Shown here one piece after another: positions 17,989 through 24,758 of a stretch of DNA of 38,029 nucleotides. The notes under the pieces were generated by a model. The model made no database searches, had not been told where the DNA came from, and worked only from the letters and a program-made list of their open reading frames with translations. Position numbers and translations under genes: made by a program. Source of the stretch: a virus; UHGV virus genome UHGV-0335973; one strand, 5' to 3'. Positions within the stretch are counted from its first letter, which is position 1. The number at the start of each line of letters is the position of its first letter.

Positions 17989-18645
17989 ATGAATGAACAA
18001 CTACAAGCAACACTAATCGAAGCTATGGGAAGTGATCGTAGCGTAGTAAATGCAGCTCGAGTTTCCTTTGGCGTAACCCGTGAAGGTGATTTAAATGAAC
18101 GTGATGAACGTCTCATCAACTTCCTCGCAAGAGAGAAGCATGTTACCCCATTCCGACACCCGCAAGTCAGTTTCCGATGCAAAGCACCTATCGCAATTGC
18201 GAGACAGTTGGGCAAGCATCAGGTTGGATTCTCGTGGAACGAAATGTCCCGGCGGTATAAAGATGGAGCAGTTGAAGTCTTCATCCCTAAAGAGATTTTT
18301 GCGAGACCTTCGGACCTCCATGCAGGTTCAGGGATTCAACTCATCGACGGAGAGCGAGCTGAAGCATTAATGCTGATTAACGATGCATATGAAGCTTCTC
18401 TAGCAGCATATGACAAGTTGATTGAATTTATTGCACCAGAGCAAGCTCGATTTGTTCTTCCTCAGGGGATGATCACTGAATGGGTGTGGACTGGTTCTTT
18501 GTATGGCTGGTTTGAGTTGTGTCGTCAGCGACTCTCCTCTCACGCTCAATACGAAGTTCGAGTGTTTGCCCAATCTCTAGACGAAGAGATGGCTAAGCTC
18601 TACCCAATCTCATGGGCAGCTCTGAAGAAAACTTTGGAGAACTGA
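17989..18645 (+). CDS. thyX: flavin-dependent thymidylate synthase (ThyX-like)
   Basis: FRHPQVSF, RQRLSSHAQ (RHR..S-like) and ThyX-typical length. Confidence 0.7.
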   Translation: MNEQLQATLIEAMGSDRSVVNAARVSFGVTREGDLNERDERLINFLAREKHVTPFRHPQVSFRCKAPIAIARQLGKHQVGFSWNEMSRRYKDGAVEVFIPKEIFARPSDLHAGSGIQLIDGERAEALMLINDAYEASLAAYDKLIEFIAPEQARFVLPQGMITEWVWTGSLYGWFELCRQRLSSHAQYEVRVFAQSLDEEMAKLYPISWAALKKTLEN

Positions 18646-19529: not shown

Positions 19530-20269
19530 GTCGTCGTCAATCACGGAAAGAATCACGGAAAGACCTTCGTCGGGAAGCACTTGTTACTCGTAAGGGTAAG
19601 CGAGAGTATGAAGAGGTGGTTTTAGCAAAGCCTGTAGTCCCTCAGAACCAGTTTCAGTCTGAGCTACTCAATGCTATTAAGACTAAACAAGTTGTGTTCA
19701 CAGACGCTCCTGCGGGCTGTGGTAAGACCTTTGTAATCACTTCCACGGTTATTGATGCACTGAAGAGTGGTAAGATTCAGAAGATCATCCTGAGTCGACC
19801 TTCGGTCGGCATGGGCAACTCTCTTGGGTTACTTCCGGGAGGAATGCGTGAGAAGTTTGAACCATACCTGATGCCTATTATTGATGTTATTACTCAGCGA
19901 TATGGTAAAGGGTTCTATGAATGCCAAATCGGAAACGGTAACATCGAATTCGTACCTCTGGAATATCTCCGTGGTCGTTCCTTCAATGATGCCATTGTTA
20001 TCGTGGATGAGTTCCAGAACACCACTAAAGATGAAGCCTTCTCCATCATGACTCGATTGGGAGAAACCTCTCAATTGTTCTGTATGGGTGATACAAACCA
20101 GCATGATATGCGTGGTCGTGAGGGTGGTCTTACTTGGGCTACTAACTTTATTGATGAACATGATCTGTATGAGTTCGCTGAGATTGTAGATGGTGAATCA
20201 GATGACATTGTTCGTTCTGGTTTCTGTAAGGCGATTGTTAAAGCAATGGAAAAAGGACAAGATGAGTGA
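19526..20269 (+). CDS. phoH: PhoH-like ATPase
   Basis: Walker A DAPAGCGKTF, Walker B IVIVDEFQN, PhoH-typical length. Confidence 0.75.
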   Translation: MSRRQSRKESRKDLRREALVTRKGKREYEEVVLAKPVVPQNQFQSELLNAIKTKQVVFTDAPAGCGKTFVITSTVIDALKSGKIQKIILSRPSVGMGNSLGLLPGGMREKFEPYLMPIIDVITQRYGKGFYECQIGNGNIEFVPLEYLRGRSFNDAIVIVDEFQNTTKDEAFSIMTRLGETSQLFCMGDTNQHDMRGREGGLTWATNFIDEHDLYEFAEIVDGESDDIVRSGFCKAIVKAMEKGQDE

Positions 20270-20451
20270 AAGCAGCTCTAGTTATTCGAGATTGTGGTGA
20301 TGGTTCAGCAACCATCGACTTCTACAAAAATATCGAACGAGCGTGTTTTGAGTGTGAAGAGTTCAATGAAGACACCTGCATGAATGATGGAGAACCTACT
20401 ATCATTGATGTTCCTGATGATTTTGTACCACCGGGAGGGTGGAGTGAGTAA
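20266..20451 (+). CDS. hypothetical protein (61 aa)
   Basis: ORF from track. Confidence 0.4.
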   Translation: MKAALVIRDCGDGSATIDFYKNIERACFECEEFNEDTCMNDGEPTIIDVPDDFVPPGGWSE

Positions 20452-20632
20452 TACTCAAGAGTCAGTAATAGAAGAGATTAAAGCTCAGATAGTTGATAAA
20501 CTCTCTATCAGGGTTGATTCTAAAGACACCAAATGCTCTGGTATATTGAAGATAGATCTTCTTTACAATGGGGAGGTTATCTCCTTTGATGAGGTATATG
20601 CCTCTGATATTAAATACTTAGCAGAGTTTTAA
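20444..20632 (+). CDS. hypothetical protein (GTG start)
   Basis: ORF overlapping upstream stop; track start 20384 is in the upstream gene. Confidence 0.35.
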   Translation: MSNTQESVIEEIKAQIVDKLSIRVDSKDTKCSGILKIDLLYNGEVISFDEVYASDIKYLAEF

Positions 20633-20686
20633 TAGCATTCATAATGTATACTCCTTAGTGTACACTGATATATTAAGGAGTTTTAA

Positions 20687-21004
20687 ATGGCAGATCATGT
20701 AGGAAAGAGAGATTATGCACAAGAAAGACGTACCGCAATTGCCCGTGGTGAGACAGGCGTTGGGAGCAAGAGCGGAGATGCTCAGCGCCACCGTGCACGT
20801 CGCATCGTTGAAAAGCGCGACGGAAAAGCTGCTGTCAGAGGTAAAGACGTTGGACACAAACGAGCTGTCAAGTCTGGAGGTTCTAATGCGTCAAGCAACT
20901 TACGTGTTGAATCAGTCAGCTCAAACCGTTCAAACGGCGGCAAAAGTGGTGATCGAGCTGGAAAAGCAGCTGGAGCACGCAAAGGAGCTTTAAGCTCATC
21001 GTAA
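20687..21004 (+). CDS. basic Gly/Ser/Lys-rich low-complexity protein (KGG-like stress protein flavour); alternative overlapping frame 20715-20993 also open
   Basis: strong TAAGGAG SD 6 nt upstream; locally GC-richer island; followed by strong terminator. Confidence 0.4.
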   Translation: MADHVGKRDYAQERRTAIARGETGVGSKSGDAQRHRARRIVEKRDGKAAVRGKDVGHKRAVKSGGSNASSNLRVESVSSNRSNGGKSGDRAGKAAGARKGALSSS

Positions 21005-21008
21005 TATG

Positions 21009-21039
21009 AGGCTACCCAAATGGGTGGCCTTTTCTTTTA
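21009..21039 (+). terminator. rho-independent terminator
   Basis: AGGCTACCCA...TGGGTGGCCT stem followed by TTTTCTTTT. Confidence 0.55.
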
Positions 21040-21073
21040 TATAAATCAAGTTGAACTTTTTTAGGTAATAAAT

Positions 21074-21328
21074 ATGTCTATTGTAAAAATCGTAAATATT
21101 TTTGATGTAACCAGAGATGGCAAGATTGTTAAGTGGACTTTCACTAACCACCACAACAAATCAAACAAGATCATCGAACGCATGATTGAGATTAACCCTA
21201 AAACAGCTCGCACTAACGTACTCCTTCGCGGAGCTGATGGAAAATTTATCTCTTATAAGAATAAGAACGTAGAAAAATCTTTCCGTGTTGCAGTAGAAAA
21301 CCTAATCCCATTCCCTAAAGGAGTTTAA
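21074..21328 (+). CDS. small protein, paralog A of tandem pair
   Basis: shares KTARTNV(L/M)LR..GKFISY and PFPKG with next ORF. Confidence 0.5.
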   Translation: MSIVKIVNIFDVTRDGKIVKWTFTNHHNKSNKIIERMIEINPKTARTNVLLRGADGKFISYKNKNVEKSFRVAVENLIPFPKGV

Positions 21329-21329
21329 T

Positions 21330-21614
21330 ATGAATAAATTAGCTATGGTTCAAATTCGAGATACTTTTCCTCTGCGTGAGAATATGAAACCACGTACTTG
21401 GTCTTACCTGCTAGCTGAGAGTAAGACTATCAACAAATATTTTGTAGAGATTGATTGTATCCCAACTAGTATCACATTACTCCCTCACAAAACAGCCAGA
21501 ACTAATGTGATGTTACGTGACAGCAAAGGTAAGTTTATCTCTTACCGTGATTCACGAATCAATAACGAAATTAAATCTGCTATGGAATCTTTAATGCCAT
21601 TCCCAAAAGGTTGA
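21330..21614 (+). CDS. small protein, paralog B of tandem pair
   Basis: same conserved motifs as 21074-21328. Confidence 0.5.
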   Translation: MNKLAMVQIRDTFPLRENMKPRTWSYLLAESKTINKYFVEIDCIPTSITLLPHKTARTNVMLRDSKGKFISYRDSRINNEIKSAMESLMPFPKG

Positions 21615-21616
21615 GT

Positions 21617-21775
21617 AATGAAAGAATACATTTACGTAGGACAGCGCTGGTTCGGTGATGAATGGGAAGGCGGATACAGCGTTGTGAAAGCTTTTAAGTC
21701 GGAAGAAGATGCCAAGTCATGGGTCTTAAAAGACGATGTTGGCGAGAGAACTTACATTGAAGTAGAGGTGGAGTA
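21617..21775 (+). CDS. hypothetical small protein (52 aa), not in ORF track
   Basis: ATG 2 nt after upstream stop; ends 2 nt before next start. Confidence 0.3.
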
Positions 21776-21777
21776 GG

Positions 21778-22191
21778 ATGCCATTACCAGCTAGACACCA
21801 AAACCGTTTCTTAGTTCTCAAGTGGGATGATATTGAAATGAATCTCACTGAACATGAACTAGATTTGTTCCATGAATTATTATCAGAGATTCGCTCTGGT
21901 ATTCCTGAACGTCAGTATGTGGTTATCAGTGATAAGCACCCTCAAGAGTTTGAAGAAGCTTGGGGCATGAAGCTGGCCTATATCCAGAGAGCTATTAGAG
22001 AAAGAGAAGAAGTTGCTAATCAGAGGGTTGTGGCCCATCTAGTCAGAGAGCAGCCTCGTGAGGTTAGATCTTCTTATTCTGCATCTACTTGGGCACAAAC
22101 AAATGCAGCAATGAGAACATATGCTGTTGATTCCTCATCCTTGGATGTAGTAGAAGATAACCAAGCATTTACAGATTTACTTTACCAATAA
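21778..22191 (+). CDS. hypothetical protein (137 aa)
   Basis: ORF from track. Confidence 0.5.
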   Translation: MPLPARHQNRFLVLKWDDIEMNLTEHELDLFHELLSEIRSGIPERQYVVISDKHPQEFEEAWGMKLAYIQRAIREREEVANQRVVAHLVREQPREVRSSYSASTWAQTNAAMRTYAVDSSSLDVVEDNQAFTDLLYQ

Positions 22192-22207: not shown

Positions 22208-23558
22208 GTGAGCAACCCGGACGCTCTTCCATTTTTGACAGAGATGACTGTCGCTGATATAATCTCTAAGCAAGCAAAGCACGGAGTGAGTTTCAACCGA
22301 AGAAATGCTCGGTGGTATGTTCACCTCCTTAAAGAGATTATTGTTAATATTGACAGAGAGTTGATTCCTCTCTTACCTAAGATGAGATTAGACGGCTCTA
22401 CTTATATGAAGCCGTTTAAGAAGTCTGGAGCTTTGCAGAAGTGGCCTCAAGCTTATTGTGATAGGGTTGGACTTAAGAGAGAAGATATTGGTGGAGCTTT
22501 CACCTGTGTCGAATATGTAGACTTTGACCCATCGAAAGATGCACGAGTTAAAGAAGCTCTTATGGATGAGGGCTTTCTTCCTCCAGAGTTTAACGTATCT
22601 AAGAAGCCTTGGAATACTTTCGAAATTAAGAAAGACATGAGAAAGTATGGAACATACCAAGCATGGTATACTGCTTGGATGCGAGGCAATGCTAAGCAGA
22701 AGCAGACAGCCGAGATGGTTGACGCTGATATTAAGAAGTTCTTAGAAAAGCATTTCAGGTTTAAAACTAAGAACTACATGAAGGCTTATGTATTTGGTTT
22801 AGGTTTAAACCCTAACCGACGTAATCCTGTAACGTTTGATGAGATTAAGAAAGCACTAGCCACATCAAACAAGTGGCCTACAGCTCCTACAAACCTCGAG
22901 GAGACTCTTGAAGAAGGGTTAGGGGGTGAGCTAGGGAGTGTCGGAAGTTTGCTTAAGAGACGCGTTGTAGCGGCTCACAGGCTAGGTCTTATCAGTGGAC
23001 TCATAGCAAAGGAGCGCGAAGATGGTAAACTTTCGGCAGAAGCTAACAGCTGCGCTACGCCGACTTTTCGATTCAAACACCGTATCGTGGTTAATATTCC
23101 CTCCCGTGGTTTGTTTGGTCATGAGTGTCGCAGTTTGTTTGAATCTGACTATAACTCAGATGATGATCACTCTCGTCCTTTCGTTATTACTAACGTTGTT
23201 CCTGATGGTTGTTATATACGAAAAGGTACTAACGTAATTTATGAGAAAGGTAAACCGGGGAAGAAAGACAAACCTGTAGGTGCTTACAAATATTACATAC
23301 CCGCTGGTAAAGAAGTATTCTTAGGGTATGATGGTTCTGGGCTTGAACTTCGTATGCTCGCTCACTACCTCATTAAAGAGTGTAGGGATATGCTTGCTGA
23401 GGCAATCGAAGAGAACAATCCAGCTAAGAAAGCTCTGGCAGAACGTGGTTTAGCTTCTGCTATTATGTATCGTGATATTCTCCTTGAAGGTGATATCCAC
23501 TCCCACAACCAGAAACTTGCTGGTCTTCCTACTCGTGACAACGCTAAGACGTTTATCT
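22208..23558 (+). CDS. DNA polymerase (family A, T7 gene 5-like polymerase domain), exon 1
   Basis: motif A GYDGSGLELRMLAHY; DIHSHNQKLAGLPTRDNAKTFI = start of motif B; track stop 23558-23560 is created by the intron. Confidence 0.75.
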
Positions 23559-24264
23559 GACGTAAATGGATACTTCGAGAGTAATCTCGTCGATTAAATT
23601 GGGTGAACTCAGGGAAACTCTCTAGTAGACAATCCTGAGCCAAGCAAGTATTCTATAGCAACTCAACAAGGAGGTGCTTATGGAATATACAACTGTAACT
23701 AAAACTAAAGAAGAACAGACTGCCGAGGCAGGTAAATACCCTCAAGGTCAGTTCAACCCAAAACCTTGCCGTAATTGCTCAAAAGATTTTCAACCAAATG
23801 CACCATCTGAACATTATTGCTCTGATGGATGCAAAGATAGAGGCTGGAGAAATTCATACTTCAAACGAATGTATGGAATCACAGCCGATGATTACGAAAA
23901 GATGTACGCTGATCAGGATGGGAAGTGTGCTATCTGTAAGGGCGAAGGATTTGTAATGGCAACACATCACAGAATTAGACTTGTGGTTGATCATTGCCAT
24001 GAATCTGGAGTAATACGTGGTCTGTTGTGTCACAACTGCAACAGAGCTTTAGGGCTACTGAAAGATGATGTTAGCCGATTAGAAACAGCTATAGAATACT
24101 TGAAGGTGCAACGACTATCCGAAAGGAGTACACCGGAAGCTGATGCCGGTGGAAGCGCCCAACCCCTCGACAGAGGGTGATGATATAGTCTATCCTACAC
24201 GGCGACGTGTAGCAGTTCATAAGAGAACGGGCAGGAGTGTTGCGGCTCCTGTCGAATATACGAG
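23559..24264 (+). mobile_element. group I intron (706 nt) with endonuclease VII-type HNH ORF
   Basis: P1 pairing exon UAUCU with intron GGAUA (~23568); 5' and 3' segments homologous to intron 1 with compensatory changes in two hairpins; splicing yields KTFIYAFNYGAGD, matching T7 KTFIYGFLYGAGD spacing. Confidence 0.65.
23674..24180 (+). CDS. intron-encoded HNH endonuclease (endonuclease VII family)
   Basis: CAICKGEG...VVDHCHESGVIRGLLCHNCNRALG motif; AAGGAGG SD. Confidence 0.65.
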   Translation: MLMEYTTVTKTKEEQTAEAGKYPQGQFNPKPCRNCSKDFQPNAPSEHYCSDGCKDRGWRNSYFKRMYGITADDYEKMYADQDGKCAICKGEGFVMATHHRIRLVVDHCHESGVIRGLLCHNCNRALGLLKDDVSRLETAIEYLKVQRLSERSTPEADAGGSAQPLDRG

Positions 24265-24758
24265 ATGCGTTCAACTACGGTGCTGGCGACGCTAAGCTTG
24301 GCTCAATTGTAGGTGGTGGGGCTGACGAAGGCTCAGTGATGCGAGCACGTTTCTTAGCAGAGAACCCATGTATTGCAATCCTCATTGATCGTATGACAGA
24401 AAAGGCTGCTCAAGGGTACTTGATTGGTGTTGATGGTCGTAAGATTACAATGAGACGAGATGCCACTGGTAAAGTTATGGTTCATAAAGCCCTTAACACA
24501 CTCCTGCAATGTGCTGGTGCTGTTGTTATGAAATATGCTATGATGTTCCTCAACAAGTGGATTGAGAGGGATGGGGTTCGTTGTGCTAAGGTAATTGATA
24601 TGCACGATGAAGGTCAATTCTCAGTAAACCGTAATGATGTACAGAAACTCAAAGAGCACACTGAGCTTTGTGTTAAGAAAGCTGGTGAGTATTTGAACAT
24701 GGAATGTCCTCTGGCTTCTGATTGTCAGATTGGATTAAATTGGATGCACACACACTAA
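24265..24758 (+). CDS. DNA polymerase, exon 2 (motif B/C region)
   Basis: AFNYGAGDAKLG and NTLLQCAGAVVMK, HDEGQF matching T7 gene 5 C-terminal region; track start 24237 is intron-encoded. Confidence 0.7.

What the first reader, a model, noticed from the sequence alone, without database searches (positions are those of the whole stretch)
21074..21614. Tandem duplicated small genes with conserved KTARTNV...GKFISY...PFPKG core
Two adjacent ORFs (84 and 94 aa) share a strongly conserved central block and C-terminal PFPKG with divergent N-termini, a second example of local paralog expansion in this arm.
Basis: seen in the sequence. Interest (0 to 1): 0.45.

Follow-up and report, generated by a model that had tools for sequence, protein, structure and literature searches.

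The report
Tandem paralogs of an orphan phage protein
Two neighbouring small genes in a phiEco32-like E. coli phage are real but anciently diverged copies of one lineage-restricted protein of unknown function that always sits just upstream of the phage DNA polymerase; this is a catalogued, fairly ordinary feature, notable mainly because half of each protein evolves unusually fast.

Summary
ORFs 21074-21328 (84 aa) and 21330-21614 (94 aa) are paralogs: BLASTP gives 37% identity and E=3e-18, and both match PHROG 6814 at E~1e-35. They are the orthologs of phiEco32 gp57 and gp56, annotated as hypothetical proteins and placed among the middle genes.

One or two copies always lie between an HNH-like gp58 and gp54/DNA polymerase. 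This holds even in metagenomic phages whose polymerase is only 71% identical.

The duplication is ancient: core DNA identity is 55% and synonymous sites are saturated. The second copy is missing in several lineages.

The C-terminal half (TARTNV...GKFISY...PFP) is under strong purifying selection (dN/dS about 0.05-0.15). The N-terminal half is hypervariable, at about 50% nucleotide identity while flanks are 97-100% identical.

Function is untested. My best inference, at low confidence, is a non-enzymatic binding or adaptor protein of the replication-gene module. Interest is modest.

The parts
21074..21328 (+). Copy 1, 84 aa, ortholog of phiEco32 gp57 (phi32_57); member of PHROG 6814
   Evidence: ORF. 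PHROG 6814, E=3.7e-36. Syntenic with phi32_57. 100% identical in metagenome contig L013 and 65% identical to the phiEco32 protein. AF2 model: pLDDT 76.8, beta-beta-alpha-beta-alpha.
21074..21199 (+). Hypervariable N-terminal half of copy 1 (codons 1-42: beta1, beta2, alpha1)
   Evidence: Nucleotide identity to close relatives falls to about 50% here, while flanks are 95-100%. dN is 0.36-0.52 against other Kuravirus-type alleles, compared with 0.00-0.04 in the flanking genes gp58, PhoH and pol.
21200..21322 (+). Conserved core of copy 1 (K43-G83: KTARTNV-LRGADGKFISY ... AVENLIPFPKG)
   Evidence: 14 invariant columns in A1. dN is 0.02-0.07 with dS 0.2-0.6 among Kuravirus alleles. The core motif is conserved in all ~27 family clusters.
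21316..21333 (+). Junction TAAAGGAGTTTAATATGA: the last codons of copy 1 (K-G-V) supply the Shine-Dalgarno AAGGAG for copy 2; stop and start are 1 nt apart
   Evidence: Sequence. The same RBS-start context recurs at the gp58 start and the pol start (repeat family D1).
21330..21614 (+). Copy 2, 94 aa, ortholog of phiEco32 gp56 (phi32_56); member of PHROG 6814
   Evidence: ORF. PHROG 6814, E=1.5e-34. Syntenic with phi32_56. AF2 model: pLDDT 82.4, pTM 0.73. Absent as a block, together with gp55, in Bas92, EP335 and L021.
21489..21611 (+). Conserved core of copy 2 (K54-G94: KTARTNVMLRDSKGKFISY ... AMESLMPFPKG)
   Evidence: dN 0.01-0.09 and dS 0.17-0.68 among orthologs; the N-half has dN up to 0.23. 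56% amino-acid identity and 55% nucleotide identity to the core of copy 1.
21008..21040 (+). Intrinsic-terminator-like hairpin plus T-run between gp58 and copy 1; the pair is probably transcribed by read-through
   Evidence: Terminator scan: 10-bp stem, 6 GC pairs, tail TTCTTTTATA. I found no promoter-like site between it and 21074.
20618..20650 (+). Promoter-like site upstream of gp58: a weak sigma70-type match overlapping the phage sigma (gp36) motif TAATGTATA at 20642-20650
   Evidence: The motif and the middle-gene class come from the SU10 paper, PMC4281155.
20687..21004 (+). Upstream neighbour, gp58-like basic 105-aa protein with an HNH-like motif (GKDVGH...GGSN...NL...N); constant left border of the module
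   Evidence: Syntenic in every locus examined. tblastn finds it in 254 phage records, often next to the DNA polymerase and sometimes annotated as HNH endonuclease. No Pfam hit; the HNH reading is mine, from the motif.
21618..22191 (+). Downstream cistrons gp55-like (21618-21776, 52 aa, variably present) and gp54-like (21778-22191, 137 aa); then the DNA polymerase starts at 22208
   Evidence: phrog_17007, phrog_11427. gp55 is absent in many relatives. gp54-like proteins have a conserved N-domain and a variable acidic tail, 137-237 aa in total.

Best explanation
SHOWN. The two ORFs are anciently diverged tandem paralogs of one small, lineage-restricted, single-domain alpha/beta protein family (PHROG 6814; phiEco32 gp57 and gp56). 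The family is a fixed component of the middle-gene block PhoH ... gp58 (HNH-like) - [1 or 2 members] - gp54 - family A DNA polymerase. This holds in Gordonclarkvirinae coliphages and their metagenomic relatives. The genes are tightly packed and translationally coupled. They lie behind a terminator-like hairpin and are under purifying selection.

INFERRED (low confidence). The proteins are non-enzymatic binding or adaptor proteins of the replication-gene module. The invariant C-terminal half is a beta-hairpin (TARTNV-x-LR-xxx-GKFISY), a helix and a PFP cap. It would engage an invariant partner: nucleic acid, or one of the conserved neighbours gp58, gp54 or the polymerase. The N-terminal half (beta1, beta2, alpha1) is a rapidly evolving surface shuffled by recombination. 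It would either face a variable partner such as a host factor or be only loosely constrained. Where two copies exist, they are made from one message at similar rates. They would act either as a hetero-oligomer or as two specificities of the same activity.

The confidence of 0.3 refers to the inferred mechanism. The shown part (identity, paralogy, synteny, selection pattern) I hold at about 0.95.
For: Identity and paralogy.

A family with no known domain or fold relative:
- Pfam, NCBIfam, PADLOC and PDB sequence searches are negative.
- No conserved set of catalytic-type residues stands out; the invariant positions are T, A, R, T, G, F, S and PFP.

Core status and fixed position:
- Only about 27 clusters exist among 1.84e9 representatives, all 79-103 aa.
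- The family is in all 99 related phage records and in no other of 50,697 records.
- Synteny is identical in metagenomic contigs whose polymerase is only ~71% identical.
- A hairpin-sharing small gene sits at the same place in 7-11-like Grimontviridae (hhalign probability 92.5%, but only 24 columns).

Two-part evolution:
- The C-half has dN/dS of about 0.05-0.15.
- The N-half has dN 0.4-0.5 where flanking genes have dN 0.00-0.04. Its dS is also raised, which indicates old alleles exchanged by recombination.

Co-expression: a TAA-T-ATG junction with the SD inside copy 1. Middle class by homology to phiEco32 and SU10.
Against: No experiment or homology ties the family to any activity, so the partner is unknown.

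Net charge is not conserved across the family (pI 4.6-10.8). This weakens a general nucleic-acid-binding reading.

gp58-like genes occur in many phages that lack the family, for example Pseudomonas Bruynoghevirus. The family is therefore not an obligatory partner of gp58.

The second copy is dispensable in several lineages.

A hypervariable half maintained as old alleles is more typical of host-interaction or anti-defence genes than of replication accessories.

Gene neighbourhood in phages is weak evidence of function.
Confidence: 0.3

Rival explanations
1. Host-takeover or anti-defence inhibitors. Each copy would bind and neutralise a variable host protein, such as a defence-system component, through the fast-evolving N-terminal half. 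Two copies would broaden the range of targets.
Against: At least one copy is present at a fixed position in every relative, including distant metagenomic ones. That is core-gene rather than accessory behaviour. The genes lie in the middle replication and nucleotide-metabolism block, not among the early genes. The invariant half is under strong purifying selection. There is no PADLOC hit and no fold match.
Confidence: 0.2
2. Nucleic-acid-binding proteins. They would use the exposed face of the beta-sheet, with the conserved R57, N59, R63, K68, Y72 and K73 on the beta3-beta4 hairpin. Candidate roles are an ssDNA or primer-template accessory of the exonuclease-less polymerase, or a translational repressor of middle mRNAs, by analogy with T4 RegA next to gene 43.
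For: The coliphage copies are basic (pI 9.9 and 10.3). Conserved polar and aromatic residues alternate on a predicted hairpin. The position next to the polymerase is constant.
Against: Family pI ranges down to 4.6. No match to any known nucleic-acid-binding fold or profile was found. The side-chain orientation is inferred from the alternation pattern only, because I had no coordinates to inspect. The RegA analogy is from memory and was not tested.
Confidence: 0.15
3. Regulator, inhibitor or specificity subunit of the adjacent HNH-like gp58. This would resemble nuclease and immunity-protein gene pairs, which often carry extra tandem immunity copies.
For: The family is immediately downstream of gp58 in every locus. 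gp58 carries an HNH-like motif and is annotated as HNH in some relatives. Small variable proteins in tandem fit the pattern.
Against: gp58 is nearly invariant (0-4% amino-acid change) while the N-halves diverge, so there is no co-variation. gp58-like genes exist in 254 phage records, whereas the family exists in only 99. A terminator-like hairpin separates them. The comparison with colicin immunity proteins is from memory and was not tested.
Confidence: 0.1
4. Largely redundant duplicates. One ancestral function is carried by copy 1, and copy 2 is a dispensable spare that drifts and is repeatedly lost, with no distinct role.
For: Single-copy genomes always keep the copy 1 type next to gp58. 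Copy 2 plus gp55 is missing as a block in Bas92, EP335 and L021.
Against: Copy 2 is the better conserved of the two among Kuravirus phages: 76-95% identity, against 60-96% for copy 1. Its core has dN/dS of about 0.1-0.2. At least 84 of 99 records keep two copies. Tandem pairs persist in distant lineages.
Confidence: 0.1
5. The similarity is due to chance or to a repeated DNA element, and the ORFs are not real genes.
For: None beyond the small size of the ORFs.
Against: BLASTP E=3e-18. PHROG hits at E~1e-35. There are more than 100 homologs with conserved length and start. dN/dS is well below 1 in the core. The only DNA repeat between the copies is the 17-nt stretch coding GKFISY. There is no Rfam hit.
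Confidence: 0.01

Closest known systems
phiEco32 gp57 (YP_001671802) and gp56 (YP_001671801); PHROG 6814 (unknown function)
   Same: Same genes at the same position between phi32_58 and phi32_55/54/53 (DNA polymerase). Same lengths (85 and 94 aa), same motifs, both in one PHROG.
   Different: The window's copy 1 is only 65% identical to phiEco32 gp57 and copy 2 is 85% identical to gp56. The flanking gp58, gp54 and pol are 98-100% identical. No function is recorded for any member.
Small syntenic proteins of 7-11-like / Privateer-like phages (Grimontviridae; e.g. SeKF_80 CDS0075, Cronobacter phage 009 ORF126)
   Same: 85-89 aa. They lie between the HNH-like gp58 homolog and the DNA polymerase. 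They share the hairpin motif RTN[VI]-x-VRD-xx-G-x-[FL][IV]-x-W and a beta1-like '[VI]-x-[YS]-R-[ED]-Y' start.
   Different: Profile-profile alignment covers only 24 columns (probability 92.5%). The motif is at the extreme C-terminus, and the final helix and PFP are absent. Homology of the whole protein is not established.
Small phage-encoded alpha/beta inhibitor proteins (phi29 p56, T4 Dmd, T7 Gp2, AcrIIC3)
   Same: Size (50-120 aa), two-layer alpha/beta architecture, phage origin.
Fascin-like / beta-trefoil hairpin motif 'LRg-x-nGk[FY][IV]S' (e.g. accessory domain of PDB 7zoi)
   Same: A local beta-strand, tight turn and beta-strand sequence pattern (best PDB sequence hit, 21 residues, E=0.067). 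Four large repeat proteins in the exhaustive search match in several short stretches (P0112-P0114, P0116).
   Different: Only the hairpin matches. The overall fold and size differ. I regard this as a recurrent structural motif, not homology.

Membership tests
PHROG 6814 (phiEco32 gp56/gp57-like, unknown function) | Significant full-length match to the family profile | tested here: met
   E=3.7e-36 (residues 1-84 on profile 1-86) and E=1.5e-34 (residues 1-94 on profile 1-85).
PHROG 6814 (phiEco32 gp56/gp57-like, unknown function) | Orthologous position in phiEco32-like genomes (between gp58 and gp55/gp54/DNA polymerase) | tested here: met
   Annotated phiEco32 region. Synteny seen in 20 or more loci.
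PHROG 6814 (phiEco32 gp56/gp57-like, unknown function) | Core motif T-A-R-T-[NH]-V ... G-[KR]-F-[IV]-S-[YF] ... L-x-P-F-P | tested here: met
   Present in both window proteins and in all 38 sequences of A2. Invariant: T58, G67, S71, F91, P92.
Any Pfam / NCBIfam / PADLOC family | Match above the curated or a significant threshold | tested here: not met
   Best Pfam E-values are 0.18-0.29. No family recurs across the 38 members. NCBIfam best is 0.073 and PADLOC best is 0.041.
Beta-clamp-binding proteins (QL[SD]LF / QLxLxL motif; recalled from memory) | C-terminal motif with a hydrophobic residue at the fourth position | tested here: not met
   The family consensus is L-K-P-F-P, with Lys at that position in most members. 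In the better model the segment is partly ordered, with mean pLDDT 88 for residues 81-90.
Nuclease immunity/inhibitor proteins paired with an HNH nuclease | Physical binding to and neutralisation of the adjacent nuclease; co-variation of the pair | tested here: inconclusive
   Adjacency is met. Co-variation is not seen, because gp58 is invariant while the N-halves vary. Binding cannot be tested with these tools.

The most novel reading that the evidence does not exclude
The family would be a new class of two-part phage adaptor or inhibitor. An invariant C-terminal hairpin-helix-PFP module would anchor it to the phage replication machinery. A hypervariable N-terminal module, kept as ancient alleles and reshuffled by recombination at the conserved core, would recognise and neutralise variable host factors, for example defence sensors that target phage replication proteins. 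Tandem copies would stack specificities. This could contribute to the reported broad defence resistance of Gordonclarkvirinae.
Probability: 0.15. Interest if true: 0.6.

Novelty: new member of a known kind. Interest (0 to 1): 0.3.

Why it matters
As it stands, this is a correct but ordinary annotation-level finding. Two 'hypothetical proteins' of a phiEco32-like phage are paralogs belonging to a catalogued orphan family.

It becomes mildly useful for three reasons:
- The family is a universal, fixed neighbour of the DNA polymerase in a phage group whose replication biology is almost unstudied.
- It shows a sharp split between an invariant half and a hypervariable half amid near-identical flanks. 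That pattern marks proteins engaged with something variable.
- It is small, soluble and easy to test.

If the variable half proves to target host factors, the locus would be a compact model for modular evolution of phage counter-defence or host-range determinants.

Tried and rejected
1. Known domains. Pfam on the pair and on all 38 family members, NCBIfam, PADLOC and a PDB sequence profile search gave nothing.

3. Clamp-binding or SSB-tail-like C-terminal motif. Rejected on sequence: the motif is LKPFP, it is not acidic, and it is not strictly terminal.

4. General DNA binding by net charge. Rejected as a family-wide feature, because pI ranges from 4.6 to 10.8.

5. Recent duplication or gene conversion. 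Rejected: 55% nucleotide identity in the core and saturated dS.

6. A DNA repeat or RNA element instead of genes. Rejected: only a 17-nt shared stretch, and no Rfam hit.

7. A promoter directly upstream of copy 1. None was found. The nearest promoter-like site and gp36 motif lie upstream of gp58.

8. Clear positive selection in the N-half. Inconclusive: synonymous sites are saturated, and close pairs give omega from 0.1 to 1.3.

9. Co-variation of the copy 1 N-half with gp56, gp54 or gp58 alleles. None is apparent.

10. Literature. No paper in the library discusses gp56/gp57 function or their paralogy.

11. The NJ tree of the family has no support values and the sequences are short. I use it only qualitatively.

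12. The first metagenome scan failed because A2 has no stretch conserved enough to search with. It succeeded with the reduced alignment A3.

Full report
**What the window is.** A 1.7-kb stretch around the finding is 92-95% identical in DNA to phiEco32-like podophages of E. coli and Shigella (Kuravirus, Gordonclarkvirinae). It matches 99 records. In phiEco32 the two ORFs correspond to phi32_57 and phi32_56, both annotated 'hypothetical protein'. They lie between phi32_58 and phi32_55/54 and the DNA polymerase phi32_53. By homology to phiEco32 and SU10 this is the middle-gene cluster, which holds replication and nucleotide-metabolism genes (PMC4281155 and PMC8948821).

**Checking the observation.**
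- The ORFs are exactly as described: 21074-21328 (84 aa) and 21330-21614 (94 aa).
- BLASTP gives 37% identity over 91 columns and E=3e-18.
- It is the only strong paralog pair in an all-against-all comparison of the window's ORFs (E=8e-16).
- Both match PHROG 6814 end to end at E~1e-35.
- Similarity is concentrated in the last 41 residues (56% identity): KTARTNV-x-LR-xxx-GKFISY ... A[VM]E-x-L-x-PFPKG. The N-terminal parts are about 22% identical.
- The 10-residue length difference is an insertion in the beta2-alpha1 loop of the longer copy. That is the only low-confidence segment of its model.

**They are genes, and the signal is at the protein level.**
- The paralog cores are only 55% identical in DNA, with saturated synonymous sites.
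- Among orthologs the C-terminal halves have dN 0.02-0.07 against dS 0.2-0.6.
- The only DNA repeat between the copies is 17 nt coding GKFISY. Rfam finds nothing.

**Operon structure.**
- The genes are tightly packed: TAA-T-ATG between the copies, then 3 nt to gp55, 1 nt to gp54 and 16 nt to the polymerase.
- The codons for the terminal K-G-V of copy 1 (AAAGGAGTT) form the Shine-Dalgarno sequence of copy 2. The same RBS context recurs at the starts of gp58 and pol.
- 'KG' is not conserved in the wider family, where PFP is followed by T, V, E or N. So the 'PFPKG' of the finding is partly a translational signal.
- A terminator-like hairpin (21008-21031 plus a T-run) separates gp58 from the pair.
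- The nearest promoter-like site lies upstream of gp58. It overlaps an exact copy of the phage-sigma motif TAATGTATA at 20642-20650.

**How big is the family?**
- An exhaustive profile search of 1.84 billion cluster representatives found 31 hits.
- 27 of them are proteins of 79-103 aa.
- The other four are large repeat proteins that match only through short hairpin-like stretches.
- All small members share T-A-R-T-[NH]-V, G-[KR]-F-[IV]-S-[YF] and L-x-P-F-P.
- Three tblastn queries, including two distant members, hit the same 99 Gordonclarkvirinae-type phage records out of 50,697 and nothing else.
- Pfam, NCBIfam, PADLOC and PDB sequence searches are negative.

**Predicted structure.**
- AlphaFold2 gives a consistent small alpha/beta domain for both copies: beta1, beta2, alpha1, beta3, a short beta4 and alpha2.
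- The 84-aa copy has pLDDT 76.8. The 94-aa copy, with a deeper alignment, has pLDDT 82.4 and pTM 0.73.
- Foldseek against viral models returns only the family itself.

**Context is remarkably constant.** Every locus I examined has the order gp58-like (104-105 aa, basic, HNH-like motif), then one or two family members, then a gp54-like protein (conserved N-domain with an acidic tail of variable length), then a family A DNA polymerase. The loci were:
- Kuravirus, Suseptimavirus (ECBP2), Nieuwekanaalvirus (EP335), KBNP1711 and BASEL Bas92;
- 57-100 kb metagenomic contigs whose polymerase is only ~71% identical.

The gp58-like gene is much more widespread, at 254 phage records including Pseudomonas Bruynoghevirus. 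So it does not depend on this family.

In 7-11-like and Privateer-like Grimontviridae, an 85-89-aa gene at the same place shares only the hairpin motif. hhalign gives probability 92.5% and E=5e-7, but over just 24 columns. I treat it as a possible remote relative, not as established homology.

**Copy number and age of the duplication.**
- At least 84 of 99 phage records have two places.
- Bas92-94, EP335 and the metagenomic L021 have one copy. It is always the copy 1 type, and copy 2 plus gp55 is missing as a block.
- Tandem pairs also occur in distant metagenomic lineages (L029, L038).
- The 94-aa copy is closer to metagenomic P0096 (58%) than to its neighbour (39%).
- The duplication is therefore old and has been lost repeatedly. 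I cannot separate in situ duplication from stacking of a diverged allele.

**A sharp evolutionary asymmetry.** Between the window and phiEco32:

| Gene or part | dN | dS |
|---|---|---|
| PhoH | 0.005 | 0.13 |
| gp58 | 0.000 | 0.08 |
| gp54 | 0.009 | 0.035 |
| pol | 0.002 | 0.14 |
| copy 1 | 0.25 | 0.77 |
| copy 2, N-half | 0.17 | 1.0 |
| copy 2, C-half | 0.036 | 0.195 |

- In sliding windows, nucleotide identity to six close relatives falls from 95-100% to about 50% across 21111-21230, the N-half of copy 1. It recovers to 84-92% in its C-half.
- Synonymous divergence is raised as well. The alleles are therefore old and exchanged by recombination, not merely evolving fast in place.
- The N-halves remain alignable: a graded series with the x-W-x-F-T-N and I-I-x-N-Q-I patterns.
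- A test for positive selection is inconclusive because of saturation (omega 0.1-1.3 in close pairs).
- The pair is also AT-richer than its neighbours (GC 0.33-0.38 against 0.40-0.53).
- The SU10 paper independently lists these two genes among the few middle genes below 90% identity to phiEco32 (89% and 66%).

**Interpretation.**
- Shown: tandem, co-translated, anciently diverged paralogs of an orphan, lineage-restricted, single-domain protein family. The family is a fixed element of the polymerase-proximal middle-gene block.
- Inferred: a non-enzymatic binding or adaptor role. The basis is the small size, the lack of a conserved catalytic-type residue set, one invariant half and one variable half.
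- The invariant hairpin-helix-PFP half probably contacts an invariant partner: nucleic acid, gp58, gp54 or the polymerase. The variable half is either loosely constrained or faces something variable in the host.
- I put about 0.3 on this mechanistic reading. The anti-defence, nucleic-acid-binding, gp58-partner and redundant-spare readings remain open (see rivals).
- No paper in the searchable library addresses these genes.

**Verdict.** The family is already catalogued (PHROG 6814; phiEco32 gp56/gp57), so this is a new member of a known orphan kind. Interest is modest. It rises only if the hypervariable half proves to be a host-interaction module.

Noticed in passing
window 22208-24758: The DNA polymerase gene is interrupted. 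The N-part is 22208-23560 (450 aa) and the C-part is 24237-24758 (Pfam DNA_pol_A). Between them is a group I intron (Rfam Intron_gpI, 23544-24212, 42.7 bits, E=2e-9, below the gathering score of 50). The intron carries an Endonuclease VII-type homing endonuclease ORF (23674-24180, E=7e-24). phiEco32 has an intact 615-aa gene.
   Followed up: partly
window 11919-13466: There is a second intron-like element. An HNH_3 endonuclease ORF (11919-12419) is followed by a weaker Intron_gpI match (12337-12557, E=8e-5), just upstream of a DnaB-like helicase fragment (12552-13466). About 160 nt (12466-12640) are ~75% identical to 24106-24280 downstream of the polymerase intron ORF, including the GATATAGTCT element.
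   Followed up: partly
window 22235-22263 (+): A perfect sigma70 consensus promoter (TTGACA, 17-nt spacer, TATAAT, with an extended-10 TG) lies inside the first 60 nt of the DNA polymerase coding sequence.
   Followed up: no
window 20687-21004: The gp58 region has two long overlapping + strand frames: 105 aa (basic) and 92 aa (coiled-coil-like). The basic frame is the conserved one (70-100% identity across all relatives). It carries an HNH-like motif GKDVGH...GGSN...NL...N. tblastn finds it in 254 phage records from many hosts, usually near the DNA polymerase. Database annotations are inconsistent: 'autotransporter adhesin', 'Cas8 protein', 'cytidyltransferase', 'HNH endonuclease'. It has no Pfam hit.
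   Followed up: partly
window 20266-20632 and 21618-21776: Two small-gene cassettes are presence/absence polymorphisms among otherwise near-identical phages: the gp59 region (20266-20632) and gp55 (52 aa). The C-terminal part of gp54 (about 21973-22100) is another local divergence hotspot. The whole PhoH-to-polymerase interval is plastic.
   Followed up: partly
window 21778-22191; L027 4486-5148; L029 5285-5818; L030 5290-6003: gp54-like proteins share a conserved ~80-aa N-domain (MPLP-x-R ... Y-V-V-I-S-D-K-x-P-E-x-Y-E-E-V-W-G-M-K-L). It is followed by an acidic, apparently disordered tail of very variable length, giving 137-237 aa in total. No known domain was found.
   Followed up: no
window 18095-18370 vs 20384-20632: An ORF in an alternative frame inside the thymidylate synthase gene shows weak similarity (37% over 49 aa, E=7e-5) to the gp59b-like protein. 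The same match appears in loci L009 and L021. It may be chance or compositional.
   Followed up: no
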